Source of the DNA: Escherichia phage vB_EcoM-LTH01
Strand: one strand, 5' to 3'
Sequence record: PP430345
Length of the DNA stretch: 64,000 nucleotides
Shown here: positions 16,121 through 64,000 of the stretch, in pieces
Numbering within the stretch: position 1 is the first letter of the stretch
Layout: each line of letters begins with the position of its first letter
The notes under the pieces: model-generated
The model's database searches: none
Told to the model about the DNA's origin: nothing
Seen by the model: the letters and a program-made list of their open reading frames with translations, nothing else
Position numbers and translations under genes: made by a program

Positions 16121-16286
16121 TTTCAGTGATCGCGATGACCATCCAAAGAAAGGTGATATTCTTATAATTGAAGAAATTCACTATGATGATGATTTTTACC
16201 TTGAGAGTGTTATAGCCGTAGCACTAAAAGACAACAAAGGATATCTACTCTACCCATATGAATATGAGGAACTAAATAATGACTAA
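16089..16286 (+). CDS. hypothetical protein (65 aa)
   Basis: ORF. Confidence 0.45.
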   Translation: MKNVKIKLLDDFSDRDDHPKKGDILIIEEIHYDDDFYLESVIAVALKDNKGYLLYPYEYEELNND

Positions 16287-19035: not shown

Positions 19036-19193
19036 TGGACGTTAAGATCTTATCATATACAAATCTATTGGCTCTTCAAAAATTTATACTGAAGCATTAC
19101 GATTACGGTTATAAATTGATTGGTCCTGTAACAACAGGTATTAATTCAAACGGTAACACTATTTATTTGGCGACAATGATCAAGGAGCAGTAA
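19035..19193 (+). CDS. small ORF (52 aa), translationally coupled
   Basis: TGATG overlap upstream, TAATG overlap with the primase start; not in the supplied track. Confidence 0.4.
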   Translation: MDVKILSYTNLLALQKFILKHYDYGYKLIGPVTTGINSNGNTIYLATMIKEQ

Positions 19194-26792: not shown

Positions 26793-26865
26793 TAACCTAG
26801 CCGAAGGGTAATACCTCCGGCTGGGCTTTGTTTTAGTCTAGTTGGAGTTTAAAGAAGGAGAAAAA

Positions 26866-38048: not shown

Positions 38049-38084
38049 TAAAAATAAAGGCGCTCATTTGAGCGCCTTTTCTTT
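38049..38084. terminator. bidirectional rho-independent terminator between the convergent plus and minus blocks
   Basis: AAAGGCGCTCA-TTT-GAGCGCCTTT flanked by an A-tract and a T-tract. Confidence 0.7.
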
Positions 38085-39318
38085 ATGCTGGAATAACTAT
38101 ACCTTCCAAGTTAAACTTCTGAGCTATCGTATTAGAGGCCGTAAAGTCAGCAGGGTACATAGCCCCTGTGTAACCTCTCCCTGTCCAGTAAAGATTACCA
38201 TTGCCACTAACAATTACTTTAAAAGTGTCAGCCAATGAGCCAGTCATATGGAGAATGCCGCCATCATCTATAATATCTTGATGTATGCTTTCAAAAGATG
38301 TTGCGTTGGTGGTTATAGGAAGATCTCTAAATAAGGAGTATGTGTATCCACCTTGTCCACCTGTCGATTGATAAACTCCATTAACCCTGTCAGAGATGAA
38401 TACTTGCAGTGCTGCCCTAGTGCTCACACTTGCGTTTGTATAACTGATCTGGTTAGTTAGGTAAACTTCAACTCCAGCAGGAATGCTTGCCATAGGTGCT
38501 AAATTAGGACCGAGGACGTTGGTTGAGTTTATCCCTGCTCTTGCTGCCGATCCAACTGCATCCCATGACCCATCTTCCCTCTGTGCAACAATAAGTATAA
38601 TAGATTGAGCACCTGAACCGCCAGCCGTGTTAGCCACTTGACCACGAGCACATTTTGCCCTAATATATCTTACAGAAGGGTCCCCAATAGTTGTCCAAGT
38701 TGATAATATTGTTCCGGCAGAAGTACCTGCTACTTGATCTACACCATTGTCGCCTCGGTATTTTAAAGTCCCATCAACCTCGACACGAATAGCATTATAG
38801 TTTGCAAAATACAGATATTTTGTTTTTTCACCCCAAGCTATTTGGGGTCCGTCTGGAAGAAGTCTATAAACAGTGCCGTCAGGTTGGATCGCATATGATC
38901 TAGCTATTTGTATTGCGGAAGATAAGATATTTACGCCGTCAACAATGTATGCAGATTCAGGCAAGACGTTCCAACTGTTTTGGAGAGTTGTGTCAACAGC
39001 GGGGAAGATTACGGCAGAGATATATTCATAGTGGTTATTATTTTTCTTAACCCATACACCGCCGTACAGTGTACTGTCTGTGCCTGCCTCATAAACTTCT
39101 TCGACACCCGTGTTAGTGAGTGTCCATCCAGAAGTTGCATTATTTGTGGTCCCTGTTTTACCAAGCCCGTTTAAATAATTAGATCCGGTTACATACAGAT
39201 GCCCATTAGTAAGCAAAATAAAAATATTTCCTGTACTGGTGCTTACGGCATATTTGATTGTAACGCCTACAGGCAGCGGAACACCGCCGCCGAAGTTAAT
39301 AATTGGAAAAGGGATCAT
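38083..39318 (-). CDS. putative distal tail fibre / receptor-binding protein (411 aa)
   Basis: Last gene of the structural operon, next to the 1077-aa fibre gene; Gly/Thr/Asn/Tyr-rich beta-type composition. Confidence 0.4.
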   Translation of the reverse strand: MIPFPIINFGGGVPLPVGVTIKYAVSTSTGNIFILLTNGHLYVTGSNYLNGLGKTGTTNNATSGWTLTNTGVEEVYEAGTDSTLYGGVWVKKNNNHYEYISAVIFPAVDTTLQNSWNVLPESAYIVDGVNILSSAIQIARSYAIQPDGTVYRLLPDGPQIAWGEKTKYLYFANYNAIRVEVDGTLKYRGDNGVDQVAGTSAGTILSTWTTIGDPSVRYIRAKCARGQVANTAGGSGAQSIILIVAQREDGSWDAVGSAARAGINSTNVLGPNLAPMASIPAGVEVYLTNQISYTNASVSTRAALQVFISDRVNGVYQSTGGQGGYTYSLFRDLPITTNATSFESIHQDIIDDGGILHMTGSLADTFKVIVSGNGNLYWTGRGYTGAMYPADFTASNTIAQKFNLEGIVIPA

Positions 39319-39356
39319 TTATCCTCCTAAAAAGAAAAGGCCCCGAAGGGCCTCTA

Positions 39357-42300
39357 TTAGCGACGAGTGATGAATACGTCAATCAATGGGCCTTTGCCAC
39401 GATAAACCATGTTAACTACCGATACAGTGTTTGCATCTGTGTTGATGGTTTCAGTACCGTGTACAACAAACTCCGATCCGAATGTTACCGCATGTCCACC
39501 TGTACCATCCTGTTCAAAGAAGAGGAACACTGACTCACCTTTTCCTGAACTCAACAGGCCAATCGGTGCTTTCACTTCAACATCATTTATAACGTTTACG
39601 TTATATATGCTCGTTGAGCCGTCTGGGATATAAGAAGAAGAGGTGGTGCTTACTTCTTTTGGTGTGGTGCTGAACTTGCTTGCGGAAATGGCGTTTTCAG
39701 AACTAAGGGATTGAACATTTAACGGTACAGTCGGGATATTAAACTGACCAGTTACAGTCAGGTCTGTTATGTTCGCCGTCGTTAACGTAGCTGTCGTGGT
39801 AGACAAAGATGCAGGCTCGATCGCCTTTCCAGACAAGTCGATATTGCCAGAGATGTTACCAACAACAGTCAGGTTTCCACCAACTCGAAGGTTCTTGTTG
39901 ATGTTTGCACCGGAAAGAGAAGTTATCCCGTATGTAGGTGCACCTTCATAATCTTCACCGAATGTACCAGATAATCCAGTTACCGATGTACGAGACTCAA
40001 TGGAAAGGGCACTTACTGTTCCCGTTGAGGTCATAGAAGCAACGTTAACGTCTTGAGAGCTAAGGTCAATGTTGCCAGTTACAGTTCCTGTTACGTTAAG
40101 GTCGCCCTGAATCTCACCTGGTCCACGAACTTCAAGAGCAGGATCACTAGACCCGACAGTACGAGTGATAACCGTGTTACCTGAAGTTACTTTACCAGCA
40201 CGGATATCATCGGTGATGACTTGATCAATGTTGCCTATCCCTGAAACCTCTAAGCTTCCTGCCATTACTTGTCCAGTTGAAATCAAAGAACCAACTTCAG
40301 CTTGACCTGTGGCAACAATTGCAGTAGTCTGAATCTCAACTTGAGCGGTTACGCTACGGGGAGAGATATCTTTACCGTTTATGCTTTCCGCTGTCCCTAA
40401 GGCGTTACCATTCGCGTCCAGAAGAGATCCAAATACCTGTACGTCATTGAAGCTTGCTTGACCTTGAACAGATGTGATATTACCAGCGGTGATAGTCAAA
40501 CCATCATTTAAGGTAACAGCACCTTCCAAGAGGCTAGTCTCTTCGACACGTAGCGTTTTAGTTCTCACAGACGTTGCAGACTGCACACTATTTGGAAGAA
40601 TGTCTTGACCAGTGACGTTTGCAAAGAATTGCTCACCATTGGCATTTGTCAGGTTTCCAGTTACCTGAAGATCTACCGTAGTAATCTTTTGATTGTTGGT
40701 TATGTTATTAGCAGTAACCTCGTCAAAAGTTGATCCACGAGTAACCGTCAGGGTATTAACCTGAATGTCCCGCCCAGTGAGGTCTACTTCAAAACCTGTT
40801 ACAGTTCCCGTGATTGTCAGGTTATTTACCTGAGTTTCTCCAGTGGCTGTCAGGTTTGCCGTTGTAACGCTCTCAGAAGCTTCTACAGACGTTGTTTCCA
40901 CAGAGGATGGGAGAATGTCTTGTCCGTCAACATTTCCCGTTACAGTGATTCCTGTGGTGGTTCCTGTGACTACAAGATTGTTAACCGTTGTGGTCGAAGT
41001 TGTTCCTGCGGTAATGTCGCCACTAACTGAGAGGCTCGCACCATCAATTGCAGCAGCCGTTATGTCCCCAGTATCTAAGCTTTGGATACTTAACTCACCG
41101 TCTAGAGTAATATCACCACGAACACGCATGTTGTTACCAACATCGATGTTTCCTGTGGTTGTCACCGAAGAAGGAGAGATTGCTTCACCATCAATAGAGA
41201 CTGTAACTCCCGTCAGGTTTCCAGTGATCTCAAGATCCTTGATCGTTGCCTTGTTAGTCACTGTCAGATCTTGGAATTCAACAGCAGAAGTTCCAAAGTC
41301 GATATCGGCCCTGAGTGTTCCATTAACCGTCAGGTTGTTTACCGTAACATCGCCGGAAGCAGTAGTAGGTCCAGTAATGTTTAAGCTCTCTGCCACAGTA
41401 ACAGATGTTGCACTCACATTACGAGGGGAAATGTCTTTCCCGTCAACACCGATTCCAGCACCCGTGAGAGTACCTTCGATTCTTACATTTTTCAATACTG
41501 TATTGCCAGCAACGGCAAGATCTGCACCGAGAGTTGTATTTCCCTTGACCTCCGCAGTTCTTTCAACCACAATGCTGTTAGGATTAATATCCAGACCTTC
41601 AACGTCAGCCTTCAATCCTTCAATGGTGTTCGTCACACGAAGAGTATTTATTTCCGCAATACCGTCAACGATCAGCTGTGGGCGGTCTTCTGCGTTATTG
41701 GCATTACCCTCTAAGTGAAGATAGTCACCTTGCATGAATCCATCAACATCAAGAGAATTCGTGGAAACAGAGGTATTTCCAACCTTGATCTCTCTCGCAG
41801 TTATATTATCGCTATCAACAACACCAGTGGTGACTTGGAAAGGCTTTATATTTGTTCTTTTGGTTAACCCTGCCTGGGGTGGAACGCCATTTTGTTCAAA
41901 TGCGATTTCTGCGTCTGTGCCTGTCATTCGTAATCTTTTTAAAGATAATTCGGCATCAAGAGCAGCGATCCTGTCGCCAGTGAAGATGGTTTCTCCACTT
42001 ACATAGAGATCTTTCAGACTCGCATCATCTGCAACGATAATGTTTTGGAATTCACCTTTGGACTCTTCAAGAACCTCACCACGTACTTTTTCTATTTCTC
42101 GGCTAACCCAAGCGGTGTTCGCGATAGTAAATGAGCTATCACCTTCAGCAGCAAGAGGTACAGTAGGGTTTCCACGGAAGACAGGGGAAAGGATAGGGGC
42201 GTAAGTTTCTTGAATGTTACCTTTATCGAAGAAAGGTCTGAACTTCCCGTCGTTGATCGGACTGTCTCGCATAACGACAGGGGTACTAGTAGTTGCACCT

Positions 42301-42590
42301 GGGGCATACCACCAAGTTACGTTGCCATTTACATCGGTAAAGGCATACAACTGATTGAATTCAATAACTGAACTTCCATTTCTCCACGGTAACGGTGGAG
42401 TTTTGAAATAAAAGTTATCAATTATTGCTTTACGTACACTCGGGATTAAGCTACCATCTTCTGTAACAGCTTGTTCAGTTGCTGTGCCGTTGACGATCAA
42501 ATGAAGTCTTCGAGAGTCTTCGATGATCTGATCAACAGCAAGGTCTGCTTCGGTGCTTACCAGTGCCAATATATCAGTATTAGACGACAC
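39357..42590 (-). CDS. large tail fibre / spike-like protein (1077 aa) with internal Thr/Asn/Val/Gly-rich repeats
   Basis: Long ORF in the tail module; repeated NLT(V/I)(T/N)G..TG and VTV motifs. Confidence 0.55.
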   Translation of the reverse strand: MSSNTDILALVSTEADLAVDQIIEDSRRLHLIVNGTATEQAVTEDGSLIPSVRKAIIDNFYFKTPPLPWRNGSSVIEFNQLYAFTDVNGNVTWWYAPGATTSTPVVMRDSPINDGKFRPFFDKGNIQETYAPILSPVFRGNPTVPLAAEGDSSFTIANTAWVSREIEKVRGEVLEESKGEFQNIIVADDASLKDLYVSGETIFTGDRIAALDAELSLKRLRMTGTDAEIAFEQNGVPPQAGLTKRTNIKPFQVTTGVVDSDNITAREIKVGNTSVSTNSLDVDGFMQGDYLHLEGNANNAEDRPQLIVDGIAEINTLRVTNTIEGLKADVEGLDINPNSIVVERTAEVKGNTTLGADLAVAGNTVLKNVRIEGTLTGAGIGVDGKDISPRNVSATSVTVAESLNITGPTTASGDVTVNNLTVNGTLRADIDFGTSAVEFQDLTVTNKATIKDLEITGNLTGVTVSIDGEAISPSSVTTTGNIDVGNNMRVRGDITLDGELSIQSLDTGDITAAAIDGASLSVSGDITAGTTSTTTVNNLVVTGTTTGITVTGNVDGQDILPSSVETTSVEASESVTTANLTATGETQVNNLTITGTVTGFEVDLTGRDIQVNTLTVTRGSTFDEVTANNITNNQKITTVDLQVTGNLTNANGEQFFANVTGQDILPNSVQSATSVRTKTLRVEETSLLEGAVTLNDGLTITAGNITSVQGQASFNDVQVFGSLLDANGNALGTAESINGKDISPRSVTAQVEIQTTAIVATGQAEVGSLISTGQVMAGSLEVSGIGNIDQVITDDIRAGKVTSGNTVITRTVGSSDPALEVRGPGEIQGDLNVTGTVTGNIDLSSQDVNVASMTSTGTVSALSIESRTSVTGLSGTFGEDYEGAPTYGITSLSGANINKNLRVGGNLTVVGNISGNIDLSGKAIEPASLSTTTATLTTANITDLTVTGQFNIPTVPLNVQSLSSENAISASKFSTTPKEVSTTSSSYIPDGSTSIYNVNVINDVEVKAPIGLLSSGKGESVFLFFEQDGTGGHAVTFGSEFVVHGTETINTDANTVSVVNMVYRGKGPLIDVFITRR

Positions 42591-42602
42591 AGTTTTCTCC
42601 TC

Positions 42603-42863
42603 TTACTTGTTTTCGTCGGAAGGGTCTTTATCTTTTTTCAAAGATAATCCCCAACGGAGGTTGATGAGGTCACTCAACAGGTGTGGGGCCACTACCGTAG
42701 GGGCATAAAGCCATACGTACCATTCAGGCAATGTATTGTTGAATCCATACCAGAGAAAGACGGCAGTCATAGCAGCCATACCTACGTTAGACCAAAACTT
42801 CGTATGAGAAGCTTTATCTGGTTCCACCGCAGAGGTCACTAGGTCTTTGAGAAATTTTAACAT
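42603..42863 (-). CDS. small membrane protein (86 aa)
   Basis: Two hydrophobic helices. Confidence 0.5.
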   Translation of the reverse strand: MLKFLKDLVTSAVEPDKASHTKFWSNVGMAAMTAVFLWYGFNNTLPEWYVWLYAPTVVAPHLLSDLINLRWGLSLKKDKDPSDENK

Positions 42864-42885
42864 AGATCACCTTCATTATCAATGT

Positions 42886-43344
42886 TCATACCATGTGGGC
42901 AATGAGCACTAGAAATATCACTACTGCTGTTCTTATCCATTCCGGTACGGTATTATCCTTCCAAGAATAAACGAACACAAAGGTTTCTATGAAATATTTG
43001 TGAGCGTCTCTAAGAGCGAATTCGTAAACCCATAAGGGGAACAATTCTGGATATTGGATTGCAAACACTTGAATAAGCATGAACGGAATACTTAGGCATA
43101 CGATAAGTTTTTGTCGTAATCCTTTCACTGTACAACCCATAGTGAAAAGCAGTATCGAATCCAATGTCCAGACGACATTAAAATAAAGAGTGATATCGAA
43201 ATTGATTTGCGTAGAGAAGAACCAAAGGATCAGGTTCTCCAATACGAGATAGGCCAGGCAAAGCCCAGCCATTATCTTTGTTCCACTCTCTTTTCGAGTA
43301 GCAAGGATTACGAAACAAATGCCATATATTATGGCTGTAATCAT
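42886..43344 (-). CDS. polytopic membrane protein (152 aa)
   Basis: About four hydrophobic helices. Confidence 0.55.
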   Translation of the reverse strand: MITAIIYGICFVILATRKESGTKIMAGLCLAYLVLENLILWFFSTQINFDITLYFNVVWTLDSILLFTMGCTVKGLRQKLIVCLSIPFMLIQVFAIQYPELFPLWVYEFALRDAHKYFIETFVFVYSWKDNTVPEWIRTAVVIFLVLIAHMV

Positions 43345-43706
43345 TTGCGGTTCTCAATAATTTTGTTTAGTAATTCTCGAATATCCTTCTGTAGAGCGTG
43401 GTTTTCTTCTTTTGCTTCCTTTCGCATATCTGTGATATCGGTCCTAATATCTTGGATCGTATCGGTGATATGTTTTATCTTACGGTCAAGAATGGCATCG
43501 ATACTATCCTTAGTAACCGCAGATTCCTTCAAGCGAAGAACATCTTTTTCAAGCTCACTTTGACGTGACTCTAATTTTTTAAAGTCGGTGTAAAAGATCT
43601 TTAATGCACCCAGCAAAATGAATGTTAAAAGACCCCAAAGTGCTTTCAGAACTGCCATTATATCAACAATCATAAGTCTCCATAGTCGGGCCGAAGCCCG
43701 ACTCAT
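43341..43706 (-). CDS. membrane-anchored coiled-coil protein (121 aa)
   Basis: N-terminal helix (IVDIMAVLKALWGLLTFILLGALKIF) then heptad-like charged region. Confidence 0.55.
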   Translation of the reverse strand: MSRASARLWRLMIVDIMAVLKALWGLLTFILLGALKIFYTDFKKLESRQSELEKDVLRLKESAVTKDSIDAILDRKIKHITDTIQDIRTDITDMRKEAKEENHALQKDIRELLNKIIENRK

Positions 43707-43712
43707 CTAAGG

Positions 43713-44225
43713 TTAAAAGGTGAACTCTGACCAGTCGATATCACCAGGGGAGGTGCTATCAGGGATACGCATGACTTTAACTCTCATCTTGCGAAGATCG
43801 TTATATCTCTCAAGCTCATCGTCTGTAGCATCTCCCAATTCAACAGCATCCTGAAGCGGAACGATAACAGAACCGATCACTTGCAGAATGCCAGCCTTTC
43901 TTGCAGCGGTGCTAAAAGCAGGGTCATAATCTGCCTTAACTACCTGTTTACCGTTGAATGACCAAACACCGCCTTGCAAAGAAAAATCTTTGGGAAGTGT
44001 ATTAAGATCCACAACAGACAAACCACCTGGGTGAAGACGAGTAACCTCTTCACTCTTTGCCCAGCCACGGACAATACTATGTTCATCAAAGAAAACAACA
44101 TATTTCTTTTTGAACAGTTCGCGAGAGTCGTAGAAATCACGACCTTTATCGTCCTGAAAATACTGAACACCTTCTCCAAAAGCTTTAACTTCCGGTGTAT
44201 AAAGCTTGAAGTTATTCATTCTCAT
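43713..44225 (-). CDS. tail fibre assembly protein (Tfa-like chaperone)
   Basis: C-terminal LQDAVELGDATDDELERYNDLRKMRVKVMRIPDSTSPGDIDW resembles the Tfa motif; start moved to the ATG after GGAGGG (track start 44333 overlaps the fibre gene). Confidence 0.65.
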   Translation of the reverse strand: MRMNNFKLYTPEVKAFGEGVQYFQDDKGRDFYDSRELFKKKYVVFFDEHSIVRGWAKSEEVTRLHPGGLSVVDLNTLPKDFSLQGGVWSFNGKQVVKADYDPAFSTAARKAGILQVIGSVIVPLQDAVELGDATDDELERYNDLRKMRVKVMRIPDSTSPGDIDWSEFTF

Positions 44226-44227
44226 AA

Positions 44228-45862
44228 TTAGCCCTCCACCGTTACCCATACGCCAGACATACGCTTCTGGATTGGTTTGTAATAACCTTGGTTTAATCCA
44301 AGTCCCGCTGAAACAACACCAGTGATTACGCAACCTGCCGGAGCACGTACAGGACTGGTATAGTTGTCCCCATTCATTGTCGTTTGTTGCTCAATACCTA
44401 AACGAACATCTTCGATAGTTTGAACAACTACGGCTGGAATAACTGTAACCTGCCTTGTTGCTTGGATTCCCGTAATAGATCCACGAACAGTAATAACAGC
44501 AGTACCTGGAGCAACACCCGATACATATCCACTTTGTGTAACGACAGCAACGTTAGCATTACTGGTGGAATACACTAGCGGCTCGTTGGAGTTGGCAGGT
44601 GTTCTGTTAACAGGGATCACTTCAGAATCGTTAACTTCCACACTAGGGATGCTGCCGATACTGATCGCTGTCAATGGTGTGTATGAAACTATTTTAACCT
44701 GTGCCGATATACCTGTGGAGATAGAGGCAATGATGTTAGTTTCACCTGGTCCAGTCAATCTTACATTACCAGCGCTATCCACGGTTGCAACATTACCATT
44801 CTGAGAGGTCCAAGTAACAGGATATTGGCTCGCCAAGTTTGCAGGGAGAACTTGAGCAGATATCCCTTGGGTAAAACCTACACGATTTGTAATGCTATCT
44901 GGTGTAGTAACAAGTGCAGTTGGTGACAGACTTCCAGTACCTTGTGCCTGATCAGTCTTGATAATGTACATCACTGCGACGTTCTTAGGTCTGTTTTCCG
45001 GTGCAGTCGGAACTACACGGCTTGCATCGAATCGAACATCACCTGCTGGGTTTTTACGATCGTGGTCAGGACCCGAGTTTGAGTTATATTGCGTATAAAG
45101 CGCACCTTGTTCACGATAACCGTGATCAGTACGGATACTTTCGTAACCCATTACACCCGTAATGTTTCGAATCGCATCACCTTGAATAGAACCTAAAGCA
45201 CGACCAGAGTCAGGGTCGTAAGCTCCAGATCCGTGCGCCCATCCACGAAGGAACAATCCACGATAATCAGGGACTACGTTTCGTCCTAAAACTTGGTACA
45301 GTCGTGGGTTCTGAGATGTACTGAATACTTGCCCGTTACACTCCAAGAATCCCGCCGGAGGAACTTGACCAGCCCAAGTAAGAATTGCACCAATCGGAAC
45401 CAGACGAGGCTCAAGCTCATCAATACGTGCGTTTAATCGGGAAACTGCATTATCTAAGTCTTGAGATAAACGAGTAACACGCTGATCAACCGCAGTGATC
45501 TCACGACGAAGATCTGCAACAGTCTGCTCTACATAAGTTCTTAAAGTTGCAACAGATTGTCTTACGTTCGCAACATCTTCACGAATAACTTCCAGTTGAT
45601 TGTTTACTCGTGTTTCGAGTTCCTGAATCAGTCGCTTGTATTCTTCTTCAACCTCTGGAAACTTCTCTTCTACGATCCAATTAAGCCAAGCACCAGACTG
45701 GTGAAGAATATAGTTGAATTCTTCTGCCGCTGGTTTTTGCCCTTTGTCATAGCCCTTTGCTAAAAGGTCATCAATCGGTTTTGATTTGTTAGGTCTTCCA
45801 GTACCAGGAAGGTTAACATCTTGTGCCGCAAAGACAACAATCGGTGTTGTTGGTCTAGCCAT
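44228..45862 (-). CDS. tail fibre protein with coiled-coil, phage tail collar domain and two BIG2-like Ig domains
   Basis: PIGAILTWAGQVPPAGFLECNGQ...NPRLYQVLG...VPDYRGLFLRGW (collar-domain pattern); TSQNGNVATVDSAGNVRLTG and SNANVAVVTQSGYVSGVAPGTAVITV (BIG2-like). Confidence 0.7.
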   Translation of the reverse strand: MARPTTPIVVFAAQDVNLPGTGRPNKSKPIDDLLAKGYDKGQKPAAEEFNYILHQSGAWLNWIVEEKFPEVEEEYKRLIQELETRVNNQLEVIREDVANVRQSVATLRTYVEQTVADLRREITAVDQRVTRLSQDLDNAVSRLNARIDELEPRLVPIGAILTWAGQVPPAGFLECNGQVFSTSQNPRLYQVLGRNVVPDYRGLFLRGWAHGSGAYDPDSGRALGSIQGDAIRNITGVMGYESIRTDHGYREQGALYTQYNSNSGPDHDRKNPAGDVRFDASRVVPTAPENRPKNVAVMYIIKTDQAQGTGSLSPTALVTTPDSITNRVGFTQGISAQVLPANLASQYPVTWTSQNGNVATVDSAGNVRLTGPGETNIIASISTGISAQVKIVSYTPLTAISIGSIPSVEVNDSEVIPVNRTPANSNEPLVYSTSNANVAVVTQSGYVSGVAPGTAVITVRGSITGIQATRQVTVIPAVVVQTIEDVRLGIEQQTTMNGDNYTSPVRAPAGCVITGVVSAGLGLNQGYYKPIQKRMSGVWVTVEG

Positions 45863-58536: not shown

Positions 58537-59094
58537 TTAGTTGACCATCCAAGGATTACGCTTTCTTACACCAGTTCTTGTACCCACAGCAGGGAAAATA
58601 CCTGGTTCCATGAATCCATTGAAGGAATCCCGATTTCTTTTAACTCTCGCAAATTCACCATTCCTTGTTCCACCGATAATGATCAAACCGAGGCCAGAAC
58701 CTACGGCGTTGTCTTTAAGGCACGGGTCAATATACTCAGGATGCTCAGTCAACCAGTCGAGAAAGTCTTGCCAGTTTCCAGAGTTAGACCCGTATTTCAC
58801 AGATATGGTTTCATCGCCAACTTTTTCGAATCGTTCACGAATTGAAGAAGCACCACTTGAAACTTCCTGAACAATAAGCCAACGTACACAATCAAGAACG
58901 GTATTGTAAAGAATGATGGAGAACTGATCCGGCCTGTTTTCTAGGTCGTAACAAATCTTCCATTTATTATAGAAAAACAGAATCATGCTGTCAGGCATTT
59001 CATCTTCAGTAAGTCCACCTAAAAAGTTACGGACAAGTTGTACTACTTCTTCATCAGTCATGTTATCCTCCAGTGTATTAAAACATATTATCAC
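58537..59094 (-). CDS. putative head-tail connector-associated protein (185 aa)
   Basis: ORF. Confidence 0.45.
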   Translation of the reverse strand: MIICFNTLEDNMTDEEVVQLVRNFLGGLTEDEMPDSMILFFYNKWKICYDLENRPDQFSIILYNTVLDCVRWLIVQEVSSGASSIRERFEKVGDETISVKYGSNSGNWQDFLDWLTEHPEYIDPCLKDNAVGSGLGLIIIGGTRNGEFARVKRNRDSFNGFMEPGIFPAVGTRTGVRKRNPWMVN

Positions 59095-59153
59095 AAAATA
59101 AAGAGAAAGTCATTTGTATAAAAATAAAGCCACCCGAAGGTGGCCTTATACAT

Positions 59154-60851
59154 TTAATAGACATTACCGGTTTGAATAGTTTGTGTAGCTCCGTCAAAAA
59201 TACAAATAGAATATATTGACAATCTCCCACCTGTGTCACTTGAAGAAGATTTATTCATCGTTGCTGTTATCCAAACCCTCCAACAACTTCCGTCGTTATT
59301 GTCTGTAACAACAAGGTGCATTGTATCTGGATACCCTACAGTCGCCGACGCATTTTCAACATAAGCAACAGTATTGCTCAATGTTGCATTACTTACCCTC
59401 CCTGTTTTTATTCTATTAATATCCGTGTAGTTAGCCGTCAAGTACCATCCAAAATTTATTTGTCTGGAAGAAGACGATGTTCCTGCGGAGAAACCTACCT
59501 TAACTTGACTAGCCAAACCTGCGGCGTCAATAATAAGCCTTACATTACCATTATTAGTACCGGGTAAAGGTAACCACATTTTTTTAGTCCCAGTAGGTGT
59601 ATTATAAACCCCAGCTAAGGTAGGAGTAGCAGCTGGACCTACATCTCCTTTATCCCCTTTGTCCCCTTTCTCGCCCTTAGGACCTTGAGGGCCTATCATA
59701 CCTGCCGGACCTTGTGGTCCAATAGCACCTGTCTCCCCCTGAGGGCCAGTCGGACCCCTGATACCCTGAGGGCCAGCTATGCCTTGAGTGCCTTGAGGGC
59801 CTGCTGGGCCGATATCTCCTTTATCTCCCTTAGGACCTTGCGGACCCTCTGGGCCAGTTGGTCCTGCATCACCCTTCACTCCCTGGGGACCTTGTGGACC
59901 TTGAGGACCAGTCGGACCTATATTACCTTGAGGGCCAGTTGGACCCGTTGCACCAATTGGACCTTGAGGACCTTCAGGGCCTGCTGGACCTTCAGCGCCT
60001 ATATCCCCTTTAGGTCCTTGTGGTCCCATAGGACCCTGAGGTCCTTCAGCACCTTGATCACCTTTGGGACCAACAGCGCCTGCAATCCCCTGAATACCCT
60101 GGGGACCCTGAGGGCCTGTTGGCCCTTGTTCCCCCCTTGCACCTTGATCACCTTTTGGACCCTGCGGTCCTTGTGGACCTGTTGGCCCTTGAGATCCTTC
60201 TAAGGCTAAGATAACCCAATCTTCATTTGTACCAGGTTCTGAGCCAATACTGGCAGAACTGGCAAAATACGTTGAACCATTGTAAGAAACCGAATCATTT
60301 TCAGAATAAGATTCCTCAGCGTCCCAAGTACCTTTGAAAGTCAAACCAGCAGGGCCAACCTCACCTTTTTCCCCTTTAGGGCCTGTAAGTCCGATCGGTC
60401 CTTGCGGACCTTCTGCTCCAGTCTCACCCTTAGGACCTTCAGGGCCAACAAGTCCCTGAGGACCTTGCTCACCTTTTTGTCCTTGTGGCCCTTGCGGACC
60501 CATAGGTCCTTGAGGGCCAACAATACCAGCTGCCCCCGCTATACCTGCGGGACCTTGTTCTCCTTTATCACCCTTAGGACCTGTAAGGCCACGGACACCT
60601 TCATCTCCTTTGGGACCAATAGGACCTTGCGGTCCAATATCCCCTTTTGGACCCTGAGGGCCAGCAGGTCCAACTGGACCTTGTTCTCCCTGAGGTCCGC
60701 GAGGACCAGTGTTACCAACATCACCTTGTTCTCCGACACGGGAAAACAAATCTTTAAACAAATACCTCTTTCTTGCATTAAGATCGTAAACGGCAGTCCC
60801 GAAATAAACCCCGCTGTGATCTCCCGTAATACCTTTAGCTGTAGAAGGCAT
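59154..60851 (-). CDS. collagen-like fibre protein (565 aa) with an embedded carbohydrate-binding-like module and a C-terminal globular domain
   Basis: Long Gly-X-Y tracts ([20 protein letters not shown]...), interrupted by [39 protein letters not shown] (W...Y..GD.V.YNG..Y...W pattern), then ~150 aa without collagen repeats. Confidence 0.7.
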
Positions 60852-60863
60852 AGATTACTCCTA

Positions 60864-61502
60864 TTAAACAGTGCGGAAAGATTCAGGTACGGAAGGAAGT
60901 TCTTCAATATTTTTTGCAATATTCACTTCTTTAATAAAAGTCCCCATATTATTGTAACTTTCTACATAAACGGAGATTATTTCTTTGATAAGTTCGATTA
61001 CATCTAGACGAAGATGCTCGATCACTTTATTATCATAAGTTAACAGACTAAATAATTGATCGTCTTCAGCCAGTTCTGCAACAGAAAGAATGGAGTGATA
61101 AAGAGACAGTGAATTTGAATCTACAGAATAGAAACTACCATCAACCTCTACGCCGCCCATGTTTTCATTTTCGAAATTAGATTTGGCAGAGTAGATTAAT
61201 TGTTCTTTTTCACGAGTCAAGTTATCAGCTAACTCTTCCTCGGTAAAATCCCTAACGTTCCAAGTTCTGTACCAGAAACCGTCTTCTCGCAATTCTGGAA
61301 GTCCTTCCGTCACAACATCCCCTTGCGGCATCGGTACATCATAAACCGCATGATATCCAACTTCAGCCATACCGACAGCGTAAACAAAGCTACCAATAGA
61401 TACGTTAGGATATTCAGCACGGTAGTCGGCCAGGTATACCGGATAACGCATGTCAGACATGCGGATCATGGGGGTCCAGCCATAAATCTTATCGATCACC
61501 AT
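60864..61502 (-). CDS. hypothetical protein (212 aa) between the two collagen-like genes
   Basis: ORF. Confidence 0.55.
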   Translation of the reverse strand: MVIDKIYGWTPMIRMSDMRYPVYLADYRAEYPNVSIGSFVYAVGMAEVGYHAVYDVPMPQGDVVTEGLPELREDGFWYRTWNVRDFTEEELADNLTREKEQLIYSAKSNFENENMGGVEVDGSFYSVDSNSLSLYHSILSVAELAEDDQLFSLLTYDNKVIEHLRLDVIELIKEIISVYVESYNNMGTFIKEVNIAKNIEELPSVPESFRTV

Positions 61503-61509
61503 ATTAATT

Positions 61510-61540
61510 CCTTTCTGAAAGAGGGGGCCTAAGCCCCCAT
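61510..61540 (-). terminator. GC hairpin GGGGGC-N4-GCCCCC, possible attenuator
   Basis: Same hairpin family as at 51572 and 56847; weak U-tract. Confidence 0.35.
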
Positions 61541-61547
61541 TTAAAAA

Positions 61548-64000
61548 TTAACCTATAGTCATTGCTTGAGTACCCGTCAGGAACTCACCATCCCAGAACA
61601 AGGTCAGGATAGTGCGAGTAGCCCCGAGAGTAGGTGCTGTTCCGTTAGACCAAGCGATCTGGCTATCCCAGTTAATCTGACCACCGTTACCAGTGAATCG
61701 TAAGACTATGGTTTTAGCCCTTCCTGCTGGCAATCCGGTGATGACTAAGGATTTGTTGGTAGTCCCATCTAAAGTCCAAGCGTTACCTGTGCTTGCATCA
61801 ATTGCCCCTGTAGAAGCAACAACACGCAAATCGTACTGGTCCAGCTTAACCCATGCGCCGTTTTCACGAACATAGAACCCACCTTCCAGCGGTGCTTCCA
61901 GAACTGGAACCGTCAATGTAGACCAAGCACCATCTTTACGGACGTACTGGTTACCATCACGAGGTGCTTCCAGAACTTCTGCGGTAGGCAGTTCAGTCCA
62001 ATCACCGTCGGTACGGACATACAGCTTTCCGTCCCCTGGTGCGTCATACACGTTACCACCACCTAAGAATCCGAGCAGTGCCCAGTTCGTTGCGGAAGTT
62101 TTACGGTAATATTCCAGAGTGGAAGAGTTCAGGTACAAATCGTTAAGACGACCATCGCTAACCATCGGTGCACGAGGGAAAACAACCCACAATGTACCTT
62201 GATCACCTTTAGCACCTGTCGGACCAGAAGGGCCTTGCGGACCTTGGTTACCCGTTGGACCAACTGGTCCTACTGGACCTTGGATACGTCCTAAGTTTTC
62301 GTATGCTGCACCAGTCCAACCCCAGAAGTCACCTTGGATAAGATAACCTTGACCCAAAGTACCAGTTGAAGGTAATTCATCAGAGGTATCAAATCGACCA
62401 ATGATCTCTACACCAGGACCAATATCTCCCTGAGGACCTTGCTCACCCTGTGGGCCTTGGTCGCCTTGTGGTCCTACTTCACCACGTTCACCCTGAGGAC
62501 CTTGCTCCCCTTGTGGCCCTGTGGCTCCAGTATCACCTTTGTCACCTTTAGCGCCAGTCAATCCCTGAGGGCCCTGAGTACCCTGAGGACCTTGCTCCCC
62601 TTGTGGGCCACGGGCAACCCCAGCCTCTACAAAAGCAGTTCCGTCGAAAGCGTAACCGATCCCAGTGTCGTCTGTGACATAGAAATCACCTACAGCACCA
62701 GTTTGAGGAAGGTCTGCTTGAGATGGTACAGTTCCTTTAGGGATCAGGCCAGAGCCAACATCCCCCTTGTCGCCTTTGTCTCCTTTTGCACCAGTTTCAC
62801 CAGCAGGTCCTTGTGGTCCTTGGTCACCCGTAGAACCTTTCTCACCTTGTGGACCTTGAGGACCAACTTCTCCTTGAGGGCCGACCTCACCCTGCGGTCC
62901 GCGAACGGTTCCGGCAGAAACGAATTCCACGCCATCCCAAGCGTAACCGATCCCAGTGTCTTCAGCTACGTAGAAGTCACCTAATTCAGCAGTAGAAGGA
63001 AGTTCAGCGGAGGTTGCAACCAAACCTTTCAGCTTCAGTGCATCACCTGCGTCGCCTTTGTCTCCTTTGTCTCCTTTCTCACCAGTGTCGCCTTTGTCGC
63101 CCTTCAGACCCTGAGGTCCACGAGTAAGACCAGTCAGTACCCATGCAGTGCCATCCCAAGCATAACCATTACCTTCAGACTCTACAACGTAGAAGTCACC
63201 AGTGGTGGCATCGGCAGGAAGTGCTTCTTGAGTTGCAACAATACCACGAGCAACGATACCAATTCCAGTATCACCCTTATCACCCTTATCGCCCTTGTCA
63301 CCTTTTTCGCCAGTCTCACCCTGTGGACCAATACCACCTTGTGGACCAGTCTCACCTTGGGGGCCAGCAGGACCTTGTGCCCCTGTTGCACCCTGCGGTC
63401 CTTGTGCACCAGTCAGACCAATAGGACCTTGTGGACCTTGTGGTCCTACATCCCCTTGGGGACCTTTGATGTTACCAACGTTAGTCCACTGACCGCCAGT
63501 AAAGATATAAAGATCAGCTTCAATCAGATAAGCATCACCTTCACTAATACCAGTCTGAGGCAATTGGTCTTCGGAAGCTACTGAGCCAAGGATATTCAGA
63601 CCCGCACCAACAGGACCTTGTTCACCTTGTGGACCAGTTAATCCACGAGGGCCAGTTGCACCCACGTCACCTTTTTCACCCTTCAAGGTTGCAAGGTATT
63701 CATTAACTGAACCTTCGAAACCGTTAGCAACCGCGATAGTGTAGTTGTCGTCTCCTTTATCGCCTTTATCGCCTTTGTCCCCTTTATCGCCTTTATCACC
63801 CTTAGCACCAACTGGGCCTTGTGGGCCTTGGAAAGATCCCAAATCTTCCCAGTTACCAGTACCATCAGAAACGAAGACATTAGTTCCGATCAGGTAAGCA
63901 TCACCCGCATCAGCACCTGCTGGCAAACTTGCTTCATCGGCAACAGAACCTAAGATATTAATAGCGTTAGCATTCTTACCGTCAACACCAGGTTCACCCT
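61548..64000 (-). CDS. collagen-like modular fibre protein, 5'-partial (N-terminus lies beyond the window end)
   Basis: Frame stays open to position 64000; at least five repeats of a ~25-aa module (LP.TG..GD.Y......Y.W.G..W...G...GP.G) alternating with Gly-X-Y tracts; non-collagen C-terminal domain. Confidence 0.7.

What the first reader, a model, noticed from the sequence alone, without database searches (positions are those of the whole stretch)
59154..64000. Two collagen-like fibre proteins with embedded carbohydrate-binding-type modules upstream of the neck genes
The 59154-60851 gene encodes long Gly-X-Y tracts interrupted by a module matching the W...Y..GD.V.YNG..Y...W carbohydrate-binding pattern, plus a C-terminal globular domain. 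The 61548-64000 gene alternates collagen tracts with at least five copies of a ~25-aa module (LP.TG..GD.Y......Y.W.G..W) and runs off the window end. Their position upstream of the neck and sheath genes suggests head fibres or whiskers rather than baseplate fibres (inference). The low-complexity repeats are also prone to recombinational length variation.
Basis: partly seen in the sequence, partly recalled or inferred. Interest (0 to 1): 0.55.

Follow-up and report, generated by a model that had tools for sequence, protein, structure and literature searches.

The report
Collagen-like virion fibre cassette, Vequintavirinae phage
Two real collagen-like fibre genes and a small partner gene sit between the head and neck genes of an E. 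coli myophage; close relatives carry all three proteins in the virion, but where the fibres attach is still unknown.

Summary
Both genes are on the minus strand.

- **Gene A** (59154-60851, 565 aa) has 44 + 63 Gly-X-Y triplets split by a CBM5/12-like insert, and a 158-aa C-terminal domain.
- **Gene B** (61548 to beyond 64000) runs off the window. A metagenome contig identical over the window's 816 aa gives the full 1266-aa protein. It has nine collagen tracts and eight ~45-aa modules (six in the window).

The window is a Septuagintavirus-like Vequintavirinae phage. Published virion mass spectrometry of phage W70 (91.6% nucleotide identity) detects the homologues of A, B and the 212-aa protein between them.

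Gene A's C-terminal domain is swapped among near-identical phages (at least four types), as expected of an adhesin tip. Its N-terminal 39 aa resemble the anchor of phiTE gp217, which lies at the same genome position and was tentatively assigned to a capsid hexamer-centre decoration. This points to a head fibre. Gene B is conserved. It is probably the unmodelled "third fibre" near the phiTE baseplate, and the phiTE neck shows no whiskers.

The "head fibre or whisker" reading is partly supported. This is a new member of a known kind, of moderate interest.

The parts
59154..60851 (-). Gene A: 565-aa collagen-like fibre protein (homologue of W70_129, phrog_5073)
   Evidence: ORF; domain map; Pfam Collagen E 4e-50; PHROG phrog_5073; homologue detected in W70 virions.
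60735..60851 (-). Gene A N-terminal anchor (aa 1-39), core motif G..G...GV..G.A.YDL.......F
   Evidence: Invariant columns among six homologues. hhalign to the phiTE_217-type anchor: Prob 79%, E 1.6e-5 over 32 columns. The motif occurs only once in the window.
60339..60734 (-). Gene A collagen tract 1 (44 Gly-X-Y triplets, aa 40-171)
60198..60338 (-). Gene A CBM5/12-like insert (aa 172-218) between the two collagen tracts
   Evidence: Pfam CBM_5_12 E 1.7e-5, 25.2 bits against a cut-off of 26.2, with 7 of 8 homologous inserts hitting. Profile match to the chitinase A1 chitin-binding domain 1ED7, E 5e-4.
59631..60197 (-). Gene A collagen tract 2 (63 triplets, aa 219-407)
59157..59630 (-). Gene A C-terminal 158-aa globular domain, a swappable cassette (CR3_011 / IME08 gp169 type)
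   Evidence: 41.8-43.7% identical to the C-termini of the Cronobacter and Pectobacterium Certrevirus homologues and 40% to T4-like IME08 gp169. Replaced by unrelated domains in UPEC06, A5-4/L012 and W70/L014, although the first ~60 aa of A are identical or nearly so and gene B and p212 are identical where the contig covers them. No PDB sequence match.
59124..59149 (-). Intrinsic-terminator-like hairpin directly after gene A
   Evidence: 11-bp stem followed by a T-run. The phiTE record annotates a terminator at the equivalent place, after phiTE_217.
60864..61502 (-). p212: 212-aa protein (phrog_4998, homologue of W70_130 and CB7_11), conserved partner gene of B-type fibres
   Evidence: Found in W70 and CB7 virions. 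Lies immediately downstream of B-family fibres in Seunavirus, Certrevirus and several jumbo phages. AF2 model pLDDT 92. Its C-terminal half is prefoldin-beta-like. DUF4376 hit for the PhiEaH1 homologue at E 8.9e-8, and weak hits for 4 of 18 relatives.
61548..64000 (-). Gene B, C-terminal 816 aa of a 1266-aa segmented collagen-like fibre (homologue of W70_131, phiTE_215, CR3_008; phrog_3904)
   Evidence: Open to the window end. Full length recovered from Logan contig L012:6155-9955, whose last 816 aa are identical to the window. PHROG assignment. Highest spectral count in W70 virions.
62277..63962 (-). Span holding the six ~45-aa modules of gene B (63825-63962, 63462-63599, 63117-63257, 62898-63038, 62607-62747, 62277-62411), which alternate with collagen tracts
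   Evidence: Alignment A8, invariant G5 L13 P14 G21 Y24 G35 G42 G46. No Pfam family and no PDB sequence match. The profile hits 5,940 cluster representatives at E<=1e-3, with up to 15 copies per protein.
63681..63746 (-). 22-aa helical-type module [22 protein letters not shown] between two collagen tracts (third of three such modules in the full protein)
   Evidence: The same motif gives 58-67% identity hits in tail-fibre genes of unrelated phages.
62064..62189 (-). Conserved beta-rich segment after the last collagen tract (WVVFPRAP...GGGN)
   Evidence: Many invariant columns among 7 homologues. AF2 pLDDT 60-78.
61842..62045 (-). Three tandem T4-fibritin foldon-like repeats (aa 652-670, 677-695, 701-719 of the window part)
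   Evidence: Pfam Fibritin_C E 1.4e-10. PDB foldon and tandem-foldon constructs at E 4.7e-8. Regex map. Copy number is 1-3 among relatives.
61551..61832 (-). Gene B C-terminal ~95-aa all-beta domain, conserved from E. coli phages to Erwinia jumbo phages
   Evidence: Alignment; PhiEaH1 homologue. AF2 pLDDT about 70-77 for this part. No significant fold match.
58537..59094 (-). Context: head-to-tail adaptor gene (Pfam Phage_Adaptor_PhiTE on the 174-aa call), the first neck gene downstream of the cassette
   Evidence: 78-83% identical to relatives, against 97-100% for the sheath, terminator and head-completion proteins.

Best explanation
The locus is a three-gene accessory fibre cassette (gene B, then p212, then gene A, plus an upstream 197-aa Inh-like gene). 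It belongs to a Septuagintavirus-like Vequintavirinae myophage and looks like a separate late unit between the major-capsid operon and the neck genes. All three cassette proteins are virion components; this is shown by mass spectrometry in the close relative W70.

Both large proteins are trimeric collagen-like rods. This is inferred from uninterrupted Gly-X-Y tracts with Pro at X in 36-54% of triplets and Pro essentially absent from Y. The tracts would span about 92 nm in A and about 111 nm in full-length B.

**Gene B** is the conserved scaffold fibre.
- A beta-rich N-terminal attachment region comes first.
- Nine collagen segments follow, re-registered by eight ~45-aa beta modules and three short helical modules.
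- A C-terminal block of three foldons plus a beta domain most likely nucleates trimerisation, so that the triple helices zip up from the C-terminal end. This is inferred from the known behaviour of foldon-collagen fusions.
- p212, a prefoldin-like and DUF4376-like protein, is its dedicated chaperone or cap and stays on the particle.

**Gene A** is the variable adhesin fibre.
- A 39-aa N-terminal anchor fixes it to the particle.
- The collagen stalk carries one CBM5/12-like node.
- The exchangeable C-terminal domain binds a variable host surface structure.

**Attachment sites** are inferred, not shown.
- A most likely sits at capsid hexamer centres through its phiTE-gp217-type anchor (about 45%).
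- B most likely belongs to the lateral tail-fibre network, as the unmodelled third fibre seen in phiTE (about 50%).

Together the fibres would enlarge the capture radius and give reversible first contact with the host before the baseplate fibres commit the particle to infection.
For: **Sequence anatomy.**

**Identity of the phage.** 92.9% nucleotide identity to UPEC06 and 91.6-91.8% to the Septuagintavirus phages.

**Virion presence.** W70_129, W70_130 and W70_131 carry the same PHROG families that I obtained for A, p212 and B. CB7_10, CB7_11 and CB7_12 are in CB7 virions.

**Full-length gene B.**

**Foldons.**

**Cassette swapping in A.**
- There are at least four unrelated C-terminal domains. 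The first ~60 aa of A are identical or nearly so, and gene B and p212 are identical where the contig covers them.
- Conservation drops sharply across the cassette: sheath 97-100%, B 92-94%, p212 64-66%, A 43-45%.
- The same C-terminal domain and the same collagen/CBM-like/collagen layout occur in T4-like IME08 gp169. That gene is encoded beside the gp24 head-vertex and hoc genes.

**Anchor.**
- hhalign of the A-type against the phiTE_217-type N-termini gives 79%, E 1.6e-5. Two negative controls on PhiEaH1 proteins gave E 0.33 and 0.44.
- The 217-type anchor is 78-84% conserved across Certrevirus while the rest of the protein varies. It is followed directly by collagen repeats in CR3_010, POP15_010 and SSBI34_010.
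- phiTE_217 occupies gene A's position in the genome.
- The phiTE paper assigns gp217 to the hexamer-centre 'Pagoda' density.
- The Seunavirus counterpart carries a phi29 head-fibre unit, PF11133, E 4.8e-19.

**Gene B as the third fibre.**. The window already encodes the short- and long-tail-fibre types in its baseplate cluster.

**p212.** Conserved adjacency to B-type fibres in distant phages, a confident model with a prefoldin-like half, and DUF4376, the tail-fibre chaperone domain.

**Transcription unit.** Terminator-like hairpin after A and terminators annotated in phiTE after the MCP and after gp217.
Against: - **No direct localisation exists for any of these proteins.** The Pagoda assignment in phiTE rests on mass-spectrometry abundance only, and the density could not be modelled.
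- **The anchor similarity is short.** It covers 32 columns at 25% identity and 79% probability.
- **Divergence of the anchor does not track the MCP.** A's anchor is only about 35-45% identical between this phage and UPEC06 or W70, although their MCPs are 98-100% identical. p212 and the adaptor co-diverge with it. This fits docking on p212 or the neck as well as docking on the capsid, or it may simply reflect one recombination tract.
- **Published microscopy mentions no head fibres.** TEM descriptions of W70 and CB7 report only a bundle of thin tail fibres.
- **The third fibre is not named.** That it is phiTE_215 is my inference from the annotation; the main text does not say so, and the supplement was not available.
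- **The CBM-like insert is just under Pfam's cut-off,** and its sugar binding is untested.
- **The C-terminal model of B is of low confidence** (mean pLDDT 58.8).
Confidence: 0.5

Rival explanations
1. One composite tail fibre. B is a proximal half-fibre attached near the baseplate or along the tail. p212 is the joint or cap at B's distal end. A's N-terminal anchor docks on p212, so A forms the distal, receptor-binding half. The gene order would then mirror the order of the proteins along the fibre, as with T4 gp34-35-36-37.
For: - The gene order B-p212-A is conserved, and p212 always follows B-type fibres.
- p212 and A's anchor co-diverge while B and the MCP stay conserved.
- GenBank annotators call both proteins tail fibres, and W70_129 a 'side tail fiber protein'.
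- The unmodelled third fibre lies near the phiTE baseplate.
- p212 has DUF4376 and chaperone-cap affinities.
Against: - phiTE gp217 carries the related anchor and was by far the most abundant unassigned virion protein: emPAI 79,432 against 533 for the next. That is hard to square with 1:1 stoichiometry on a few fibres.
- IME08 gp169, an A-type protein in a T4-like phage, has no B or p212 partner beside it and lies among head genes.
- Many phages with B and p212 lack any A-type gene.
Confidence: 0.27
2. Neck whiskers. One or both fibres attach to the adaptor or head-completion ring, like T4 fibritin, and hang down along the tail. There they would sense the environment or hold the tail fibres.
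For: - The genes lie directly upstream of the adaptor gene.
- B carries fibritin-type foldons.
- B's collagen length alone (about 111 nm) approaches the 120-nm tail reported for W70. A neck-attached B could therefore reach the baseplate region, where phiTE shows an extra fibre that the long tail fibre contacts 'bending toward the capsid'.
- The adaptor co-diverges with p212 and A.
Against: - The phiTE connector maps (C12 and C6) show only portal, adaptor, head-completion and terminator proteins, with no collar or whisker density.
- There is no similarity to fibritin outside the foldon. The shaft is collagen rather than coiled coil.
- Foldon motifs are common in unrelated fibre proteins.
Confidence: 0.12
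3. The proteins are not functional virion fibres. They would be low-complexity ORFs, assembly scaffolds removed before maturation, or contaminants of virion preparations.
For: Nothing positive. The only point in its favour is that spectral counts are not quantitative: the portal scores higher per residue than the sheath in W70.
Against: - They were detected in two independent virion proteomes, W70 and CB7. The paper's authors matched W70_129 and W70_131 to SDS-PAGE bands by molecular weight.
- The reading frames are intact and conserved across genera, with thousands of relatives.
- Gly-X-Y periodicity is perfect over 63 triplets.
Confidence: 0.02

Closest known systems
W70_129 / W70_130 / W70_131 of Escherichia phage W70 (Septuagintavirus) and CB7_10 / CB7_11 / CB7_12 of Pectobacterium phage CB7 (Certrevirus)
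   Same: They are direct homologues at the same genome position with the same PHROG families, and were found in virions by ESI-MS/MS. Gene B is 92-94% identical to its Septuagintavirus homologues over the 816 aa in the window.
   Different: Gene A here has a different C-terminal domain (the CR3_011 type) and different triplet counts. p212 is only 64-66% identical. The published papers call these proteins 'virion structural protein of unknown function' or 'tail fibre', with no localisation.
phiTE gp217, the putative 'Pagoda' hexamer-centre capsid decoration protein (Nat Commun 2025, PMC11972413)
   Same: It occupies the same genome slot, between the p212 homologue and the adaptor gene. Its N-terminal ~32-aa anchor is related to gene A's. 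Both have a conserved anchor with a variable distal part.
   Different: gp217 has a ~130-aa globular distal part and no collagen. Gene A has about 92 nm of collagen plus a binding domain. The capsid assignment of gp217 is itself tentative.
T4 fibritin (wac) neck whiskers
   Same: Both have a C-terminal foldon trimerisation motif. The second repeat, [16 protein letters not shown], closely matches the T4 foldon sequence in the foldon-tagged PDB constructs, EAPRDGQAYVRKDGEW (alignment). Both are trimeric fibres encoded next to neck genes.
   Different: The shaft is collagen rather than an alpha-helical coiled coil. There are three foldons, followed by a further domain. There is no fibritin N-terminal domain. 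The related phage phiTE shows no collar or whiskers at its neck.
Prophage-encoded collagen-like tail-fibre proteins of E. coli O157 (EPclA-D; Ghosh et al. 2012, PMC3368898) and bacterial collagens such as Bacillus BclA (the comparison rests on my own knowledge)
   Same: These are Gly-X-Y rods without hydroxyproline, flanked by non-collagen trimerisation and binding domains. They are used as surface or virion fibres.
   Different: This locus has different flanking domains, many more interruptions (eight 45-aa nodes in B), and sits in the head-neck region of a lytic 140-kb myophage.
phi29 gp8.5 head fibres and T4 Hoc (capsid-anchored adhesin appendages)
   Same: They are functional analogues if A sits on hexamers: non-essential, outward-pointing adhesive appendages. 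The Seunavirus protein in the same slot carries a phi29 head-fibre unit (PF11133).
   Different: There is no sequence relation between gene A and gp8.5 or Hoc. Capsid attachment is unproven.
Tail-fibre chaperone 'caps' with DUF4376 (Alteromonas phages V22 gp27 and A5 gp9; PMC10579305)
   Same: p212 lies directly downstream of its fibre gene. DUF4376 is detected in the PhiEaH1 homologue and weakly in 4 of 18 relatives. Unlike a purely transient chaperone, p212 is retained in virions.

Membership tests
Collagen triple-helix repeat proteins (Pfam PF01391; bacterial and phage collagen-like proteins) | Long uninterrupted Gly-X-Y repeats | tested here: met
   A has 44 + 63 triplets. B has 99 triplets in the window and 129 in full length. 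Pfam E is 4e-50 for A and 2e-35 for B. Shuffled controls reach at most 8 triplets.
Collagen triple-helix repeat proteins (Pfam PF01391; bacterial and phage collagen-like proteins) | Adjacent non-collagen trimerisation domain | tested here: met
   B has three foldon repeats. A has a C-terminal globular domain whose role in trimerisation is only inferred.
Collagen triple-helix repeat proteins (Pfam PF01391; bacterial and phage collagen-like proteins) | Actual formation of a triple helix | not testable with these tools
   This needs circular dichroism, protease resistance or EM of recombinant protein. Only monomer prediction was available.
CBM5/12 carbohydrate-binding modules (insert in gene A) | Score above Pfam's gathering threshold for PF02839 | tested here: inconclusive
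   25.2 bits against a cut-off of 26.2 for the isolated insert, and 20.9 bits in the whole protein. Seven of 8 homologous inserts hit, best E 4.9e-6.
CBM5/12 carbohydrate-binding modules (insert in gene A) | Full-length alignment to a solved CBM5/12 with the conserved aromatic residues (W...Y..D.V.Y.G..Y...W) | tested here: met
   The insert profile aligns to residues 1-44 of 1ED7, the chitinase A1 chitin-binding domain, at E 5e-4.
CBM5/12 carbohydrate-binding modules (insert in gene A) | Binding of chitin or another glycan | not testable with these tools
In a trimeric rod the module may be purely structural.
CBM5/12 carbohydrate-binding modules (the ~45-aa modules of gene B) | Any sequence match to PF02839 | tested here: not met
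   None of 11 module copies hits CBM_5_12, even at E<=10. Only faint hits appeared, to GYF_2 and DUF2793.
T4 fibritin (wac) neck whiskers | C-terminal foldon | tested here: met
   Pfam Fibritin_C E 1.4e-10. Three tandem copies align to T4 foldon constructs.
T4 fibritin (wac) neck whiskers | Segmented alpha-helical coiled-coil shaft and fibritin N-terminal neck-binding domain | tested here: not met
   The Pfam match covers only profile positions 53-92, the foldon. The shaft is collagen with beta modules.
T4 fibritin (wac) neck whiskers | Attachment at the neck | not testable with these tools
   The only related structure, phiTE, shows no collar or whisker density.
phiTE gp217-type capsid decoration ('Pagoda') proteins | Homologous N-terminal anchor | tested here: met
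   hhalign Prob 79%, E 1.6e-5 over 32 of 35 columns. Controls were negative.
phiTE gp217-type capsid decoration ('Pagoda') proteins | Same genome position, between the p212 homologue and the adaptor gene and followed by a terminator | tested here: met
phiTE gp217-type capsid decoration ('Pagoda') proteins | Location at capsid hexamer centres | not testable with these tools
   Even in phiTE this location was assigned from mass-spectrometry abundance alone.
Baseplate-attached tail fibres (as annotated in GenBank and RefSeq) | Encoded in the baseplate / tail-fibre gene cluster | tested here: not met
   The cluster with the Collar/Big_2 fibre, Caudo_TAP and the 1077-aa fibre lies at 38-46 kb. A and B lie between the MCP and the adaptor genes.
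Baseplate-attached tail fibres (as annotated in GenBank and RefSeq) | N-terminal domain docked on baseplate wedge proteins | not testable with these tools
   There is only a weak match of B's N-terminal region to an internal part of the 7-7-1 baseplate fibre, 9RKV_M, E 7e-4. phiTE has an unmodelled third fibre.
DUF4376 tail-fibre chaperones (for p212) | Pfam PF14301 match | tested here: inconclusive
   The window's p212 gives no hit. Four of 18 relatives hit weakly (best E 0.0074), and the PhiEaH1 homologue hits at E 8.9e-8.
DUF4376 tail-fibre chaperones (for p212) | Gene immediately downstream of its fibre gene | tested here: met

The most novel reading that the evidence does not exclude
Gene A and its relatives (CR3_010/011, phiTE gp217, the Seunavirus 84-aa protein) form one family of modular capsid appendages. 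They share a ~35-aa anchor that plugs into MCP hexamer centres. In this phage the appendage would be a ~90-nm trimeric collagen head fibre with a recombinationally exchangeable receptor-binding tip. That would make a 'hairy' capsid that takes part in host-range determination. The widespread, uncurated 45-aa 'collagen node' domain of gene B would then define a new structural repeat class for segmented phage fibres.
Probability: 0.35. Interest if true: 0.65.

Novelty: new member of a known kind. Interest (0 to 1): 0.42.

Why it matters
- **Unplaced virion proteins.** The homologues of these two fibres gave some of the highest spectral counts in W70 virions, yet they have no assigned place on the particle. 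They are absent from phi92, the other structurally solved phage of this group examined here.
- **Host range.** If gene A is a capsid-anchored adhesin with swappable tips, host range in these candidate therapeutic and biocontrol phages is not set by the baseplate fibres alone. Engineering efforts would need to take the head into account.
- **Interpreting phiTE.** The anchor link gives a concrete way to interpret the unmodelled 'Pagoda' density, and gene B is a candidate for the unmodelled third fibre.
- **Flagellar attachment.** These are long, thin fibres in a clade whose Certrevirus members are flagellotropic. They are obvious candidates for flagellum capture.
- **Protein engineering.** The triple foldon and the 45-aa node (5,940 cluster representatives, no Pfam family, no structure) are of practical interest for engineering collagen.

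Tried and rejected
- **45-aa modules as elongated foldons.** hhalign of the module profile against the foldon profile gave Prob 0.7%. No relation was detectable.
- **45-aa modules as CBM5/12.** No Pfam hit. A faint DUF2793 signal (E 0.065, and PDB 8RK3_a at E 0.2) was not pursued.
- **Homologues of A's C-terminal domain in the 5.8-billion-protein set.** Nothing was found, so no alignment was available and its structure was not predicted. tblastn against the phage collection did find 12 records.
- **PDB sequence searches.** Searches with A's C-terminus, p212, p197 and the helical module gave nothing significant.
- **Fold search of the B C-terminal model.** No match at E<=0.001. The weak top hits were phage baseplate proteins and tailspikes, including an N-terminal tailspike fragment. 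The model is of low confidence, so this counts as uninformative.
- **GYFGTV motifs in PhiEaH1 paralogues as the same anchor as gene A's.** hhalign gave E 0.33 and 0.44, so this was rejected.
- **Spectral counts as stoichiometry.** Rejected, because the portal outscores the sheath per residue.
- **phi92 and rV5 as structural guides.** They lack these genes. In phi92 only gp125 lies between the MCP (gp124) and the adaptor (gp126).
- **9RKV_M match.** It belongs to a 7-7-1 baseplate fibre, but covers only an internal repeat-like stretch, so it says nothing about attachment.
- **phiTE supplementary tables.** They were not available as text.

Full report
**What is in the sequence**

Gene A (59154-60851, 565 aa) has five parts:
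- a 39-aa N-terminus;
- 44 Gly-X-Y triplets;
- a 47-aa interruption;
- 63 triplets;
- a 158-aa C-terminal domain.

Gene B starts beyond the window. The frame is open from 63998 down to the stop at 61548, giving 816 aa.

The periodicity is far beyond chance. The longest Gly-X-Y runs are 63 and 23 triplets, against at most 8 in 1000 shuffles. Pfam Collagen scores E 4e-50 and 2e-35. Pro occupies X in 54% of A's triplets and 36% of B's, and is essentially absent from Y. Gln, Lys and Thr fill Y, the usual bacterial and phage solution without hydroxyproline.

The interruption in A is a CBM5/12-like module:
- It scores 25.2 bits, just under Pfam's cut-off of 26.2.
- Seven of 8 homologous inserts hit the family.
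- The insert profile aligns over the whole chitin-binding domain of chitinase A1.

The window part of B contains:
- seven collagen tracts of at least 4 triplets, plus a cut one at the window edge;
- six copies of a ~45-aa module (consensus L.I.G.V.....LP.....GD.Y........Y.W.G..W...G...G);
- one 22-aa helical-type module.

The 45-aa module is not a CBM5/12 and is not detectably related to the foldon.

**Which phage, and the full gene**

The region is 92.9% identical to Escherichia phage UPEC06 and 91.6-91.8% to the Septuagintavirus phages A5-4, A7_1, A73 and W70, all Vequintavirinae. It is about 73% identical to Certrevirus phages over the sheath region.

The gene order on the coding strand is: terminase, portal, protease, phiTE_211-like protein (Pfam Phage_phiTE_211), decoration protein, MCP, a 197-aa Inh-like protein, gene B, a 212-aa protein (p212), gene A, adaptor, Neck1, head-completion protein, tail terminator, sheath, tube.

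A Logan contig (L012, 78.6 kb) carries an identical p212. Its 1266-aa gene B has a last 816 aa identical to the window. This supplies the missing N-terminal 450 aa.

Full-length B has 129 triplets in nine tracts, eight 45-aa modules, three helical modules and a 211-aa beta-rich N-terminal region. The collagen alone would span about 111 nm in B and about 92 nm in A.

**Are they in the virion?**

Yes, in close relatives. The Septuagintavirus paper (PMC11370258) reports ESI-MS/MS of purified W70:

| W70 protein | Size | PHROG | Spectra | Window equivalent |
|---|---|---|---|---|
| W70_129 | 53 kDa | phrog_5073 | 728 | gene A |
| W70_130 | 24 kDa | phrog_4998 | 114 | p212 |
| W70_131 | 129 kDa | phrog_3904 | 2032 (highest of all proteins) | gene B |

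The authors also matched W70_129 and W70_131 to SDS-PAGE bands by molecular weight. The coordinates and PHROG families match my assignments. In Certrevirus CB7 the homologues CB7_10, CB7_11 and CB7_12 are also virion proteins.

**What distinguishes the two fibres**

Gene B is conserved: 92-94% over the window part against UPEC06, A5-4 and W70, and 54-55% against Certrevirus. B-family proteins with the same C-terminal block occur in Seunavirus and in the jumbo phage PhiEaH1, and matching fibre genes are found in Psa21, EL and Ralstonia jumbo phages. In PhiEaH1, Psa21, SSE121 and others a p212 homologue lies immediately downstream.

Gene A is a hot spot:
- Conservation falls from 97-100% (sheath, terminator, head-completion protein) to 43-45% for A and 64-66% for p212.
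- A's C-terminal domain exists in at least four unrelated versions. The first ~60 aa of A are identical or nearly so in L012-L014, and gene B and p212 are identical where the contig covers them.

| C-terminal type | Found in |
|---|---|
| CR3_011 type | the window |
| A5-4 type | A5-4, L012, L013 |
| W70 type | W70, L014 |
| UPEC06 type | UPEC06 |

- The window's version is 41.8-43.7% identical to the C-termini of the Cronobacter and Pectobacterium Certrevirus homologues.
- It is 40% identical to gp169 of the T4-like phage IME08. That protein has the same collagen/CBM-like/collagen layout and is encoded beside the gp24 vertex and hoc genes.

A conserved proximal part with a swappable distal tip is the signature of a receptor-binding fibre.

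**Where do they attach?**

Nothing direct is known. TEM of W70 and CB7 mentions only thin tail fibres. Three indirect lines are available.

1. *The phiTE neck.* The cryo-EM study of Certrevirus phiTE (PMC11972413) shows a neck made only of portal, adaptor, head-completion and terminator proteins. This argues against whiskers.

2. *The phiTE capsid.*
   - The capsid has an unmodelled hexamer-centre 'Pagoda' density, which the authors assign to gp217 from its very high abundance.
   - phiTE_217 lies exactly in gene A's slot, followed by a terminator. The window has a matching 11-bp-stem terminator at 59149-59124.
   - The 32-aa N-terminus of gp217 is 78-84% conserved across Certrevirus while the rest varies. 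In CR3_010, POP15_010 and SSBI34_010 it is followed directly by collagen repeats.
   - A profile of gene-A-type N-termini matches it at hhalign Prob 79%, E 1.6e-5 over 32 columns. Two controls gave E 0.33 and 0.44.
   - The Seunavirus protein in the same slot has a related anchor (E 2.9e-4) fused to a phi29 head-fibre unit (PF11133, E 4.8e-19).
   - Together these favour gene A as a capsid-anchored fibre.

[quoted passage not shown] RefSeq annotates exactly three tail-fibre proteins in phiTE:
   - phiTE_236, whose Ig domains fit the paper's description of the short fibre;
   - phiTE_241, which I take to be the long fibre;
   - phiTE_215, the gene B homologue.

   The window encodes the short- and long-fibre types in its own baseplate cluster. 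By elimination, B is the likeliest third fibre. This is my inference; the paper's main text does not name the gene.

**Caveats on location**

- The Pagoda assignment is tentative.
- The anchor similarity is short.
- A's anchor is only about 35-45% identical between this phage and UPEC06 or W70, although their MCPs are 98-100% identical. p212 (64-66%) and the adaptor (78-83%) diverge with it.

That pattern fits a rival model in which A docks on p212 at the end of B, forming a composite fibre whose gene order mirrors the protein order, as in T4 gp34-37. It may also simply mark one recombination tract. Against the rival, gp217 is far more abundant than any other unassigned phiTE protein, and IME08 has an A-type gene without B or p212 beside it.

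**p212**

The PhiEaH1 homologue hits DUF4376 (E 8.9e-8), as do 4 of 18 relatives weakly. DUF4376 marks the tail-fibre chaperones of Alteromonas phages V22 and A5. I read p212 as B's dedicated chaperone or cap that remains on the particle. This is inferred.

**The 45-aa module**

A profile built from the six window copies alone finds 5,940 cluster representatives at E<=1e-3 and 925 at E<=1e-10, with up to 15 copies per protein. Six of seven sampled hits carry Pfam Collagen as their only domain match apart from one foldon hit; the seventh has no Pfam match.

The module has no Pfam family and no solved relative by sequence. It is therefore common but uncurated. It is most plausibly a small trimeric beta node that re-registers successive triple helices.

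**Length variation**

Triplet counts in gene A differ among relatives:

| Phage or contig | Tract 1 | Tract 2 |
|---|---|---|
| window, L012, L013 | 44 | 63 |
| L014 | 44 | 65 |
| UPEC06 | 51 | 49 |
| A5-4 | 53 | 49 |
| W70 | 51 | 48 |

In gene B, one tract has 23 triplets here and 22 in A5-4. CR3 has one module fewer. Foldon number ranges from 1 to 3.

At the DNA level the repeats are only 60-73% identical, with a 9-nt register. Homologous exchange of whole segments looks more important than slippage.

**Verdict**

The fibre interpretation is right. The 'head fibre or whisker' placement is plausible for A (about 45% capsid) and doubtful for B (about 50% tail-fibre network, about 12% neck).

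The genes themselves are already in databases and in a published virion proteome as proteins of unknown role. This is therefore a new member of a known kind. It comes with a specific, testable hypothesis about a capsid anchor shared with the phiTE Pagoda protein.

Noticed in passing
window 59124-59149 (-): A strong terminator-like hairpin (11-bp stem plus T-run) lies directly after gene A. Together with the terminators annotated in phiTE after the MCP and after gp217, this suggests that p197, B, p212 and A form their own late transcription unit.
   Followed up: partly
L007:10319-10573 (Salmonella phage SSE121): An 84-aa ORF after the Seunavirus p212 homologue combines a gp217-type N-terminal anchor (hhalign E 2.9e-4) with the C-terminal unit of the phi29 head-fibre family (PF11133, E 4.8e-19).
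   Followed up: partly
L005:5275-6462 (T4-like phage IME08 gp169): This is a gene-A-like protein with collagen, a CBM5/12-like insert, collagen again and the same C-terminal domain (40% identity). It is encoded between duplicated gp24 head-vertex genes and hoc-like genes. It has almost no N-terminal non-collagen segment and an ATT start as annotated.
   Followed up: partly
window 62277-63962 (-) and 5,940 metagenomic cluster representatives: The ~45-aa inter-collagen module is very widespread, with up to 15 copies per protein. It has no Pfam family and no solved structure by sequence. There are faint signals to DUF2793 (Pfam E 0.065; JBD30 baseplate chain 8RK3_a, E 0.2).
   Followed up: partly
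window 58537-59094 (-): The adaptor protein is only 78-83% identical to relatives, whereas the neighbouring neck and tail proteins are 93-100% identical. The recombination tract that replaced p212 and gene A may extend into the adaptor, or the adaptor may co-evolve with them. The gene is called as 174 aa on the Logan contigs, against 185 aa for the longest ORF.
   Followed up: no
window 38083-45862 (-): The baseplate fibre cluster contains a 544-aa coiled-coil, Collar and Big_2 fibre (phiTE short-tail-fibre type), a Caudo_TAP assembly protein, a 1077-aa fibre with no Pfam match (phiTE long-tail-fibre type) and a 411-aa protein (W70_106 type).
   Followed up: partly
L006:9772-15718 (Erwinia jumbo phage PhiEaH1): Six 'virion structural protein' genes, several visibly paralogous, follow the B-type fibre and the p212 homologue. 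A DUF7941 protein precedes the fibre; this family was recently proposed to form a 'fibre cloud' in phage Goslar. The resemblance of their GYFGTV motif to gene A's anchor was not statistically supported.
   Followed up: yes
P0019, P0021, P0023 (metagenomic proteins, 283-305 aa): These are miniature B-type proteins with only the last 45-aa module plus the C-terminal block. They start with a segment (KVSLTFKMTDDTEKKVSF) that resembles the small C-terminal domain of CR3_010-type proteins. This hints at further domain shuffling between the anchor-bearing proteins and the B family.
   Followed up: no
window 1-37000 (+/-): The rest of the window carries replication and other genes: a family A DNA polymerase fragment at 26842-29202, a DnaB-like helicase at 19193-21238, a PIF1-like helicase at 16279-17637 and a DUF2201 metallopeptidase/VWA protein at 5002-6540. 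No tRNA genes were found in the window.
   Followed up: no
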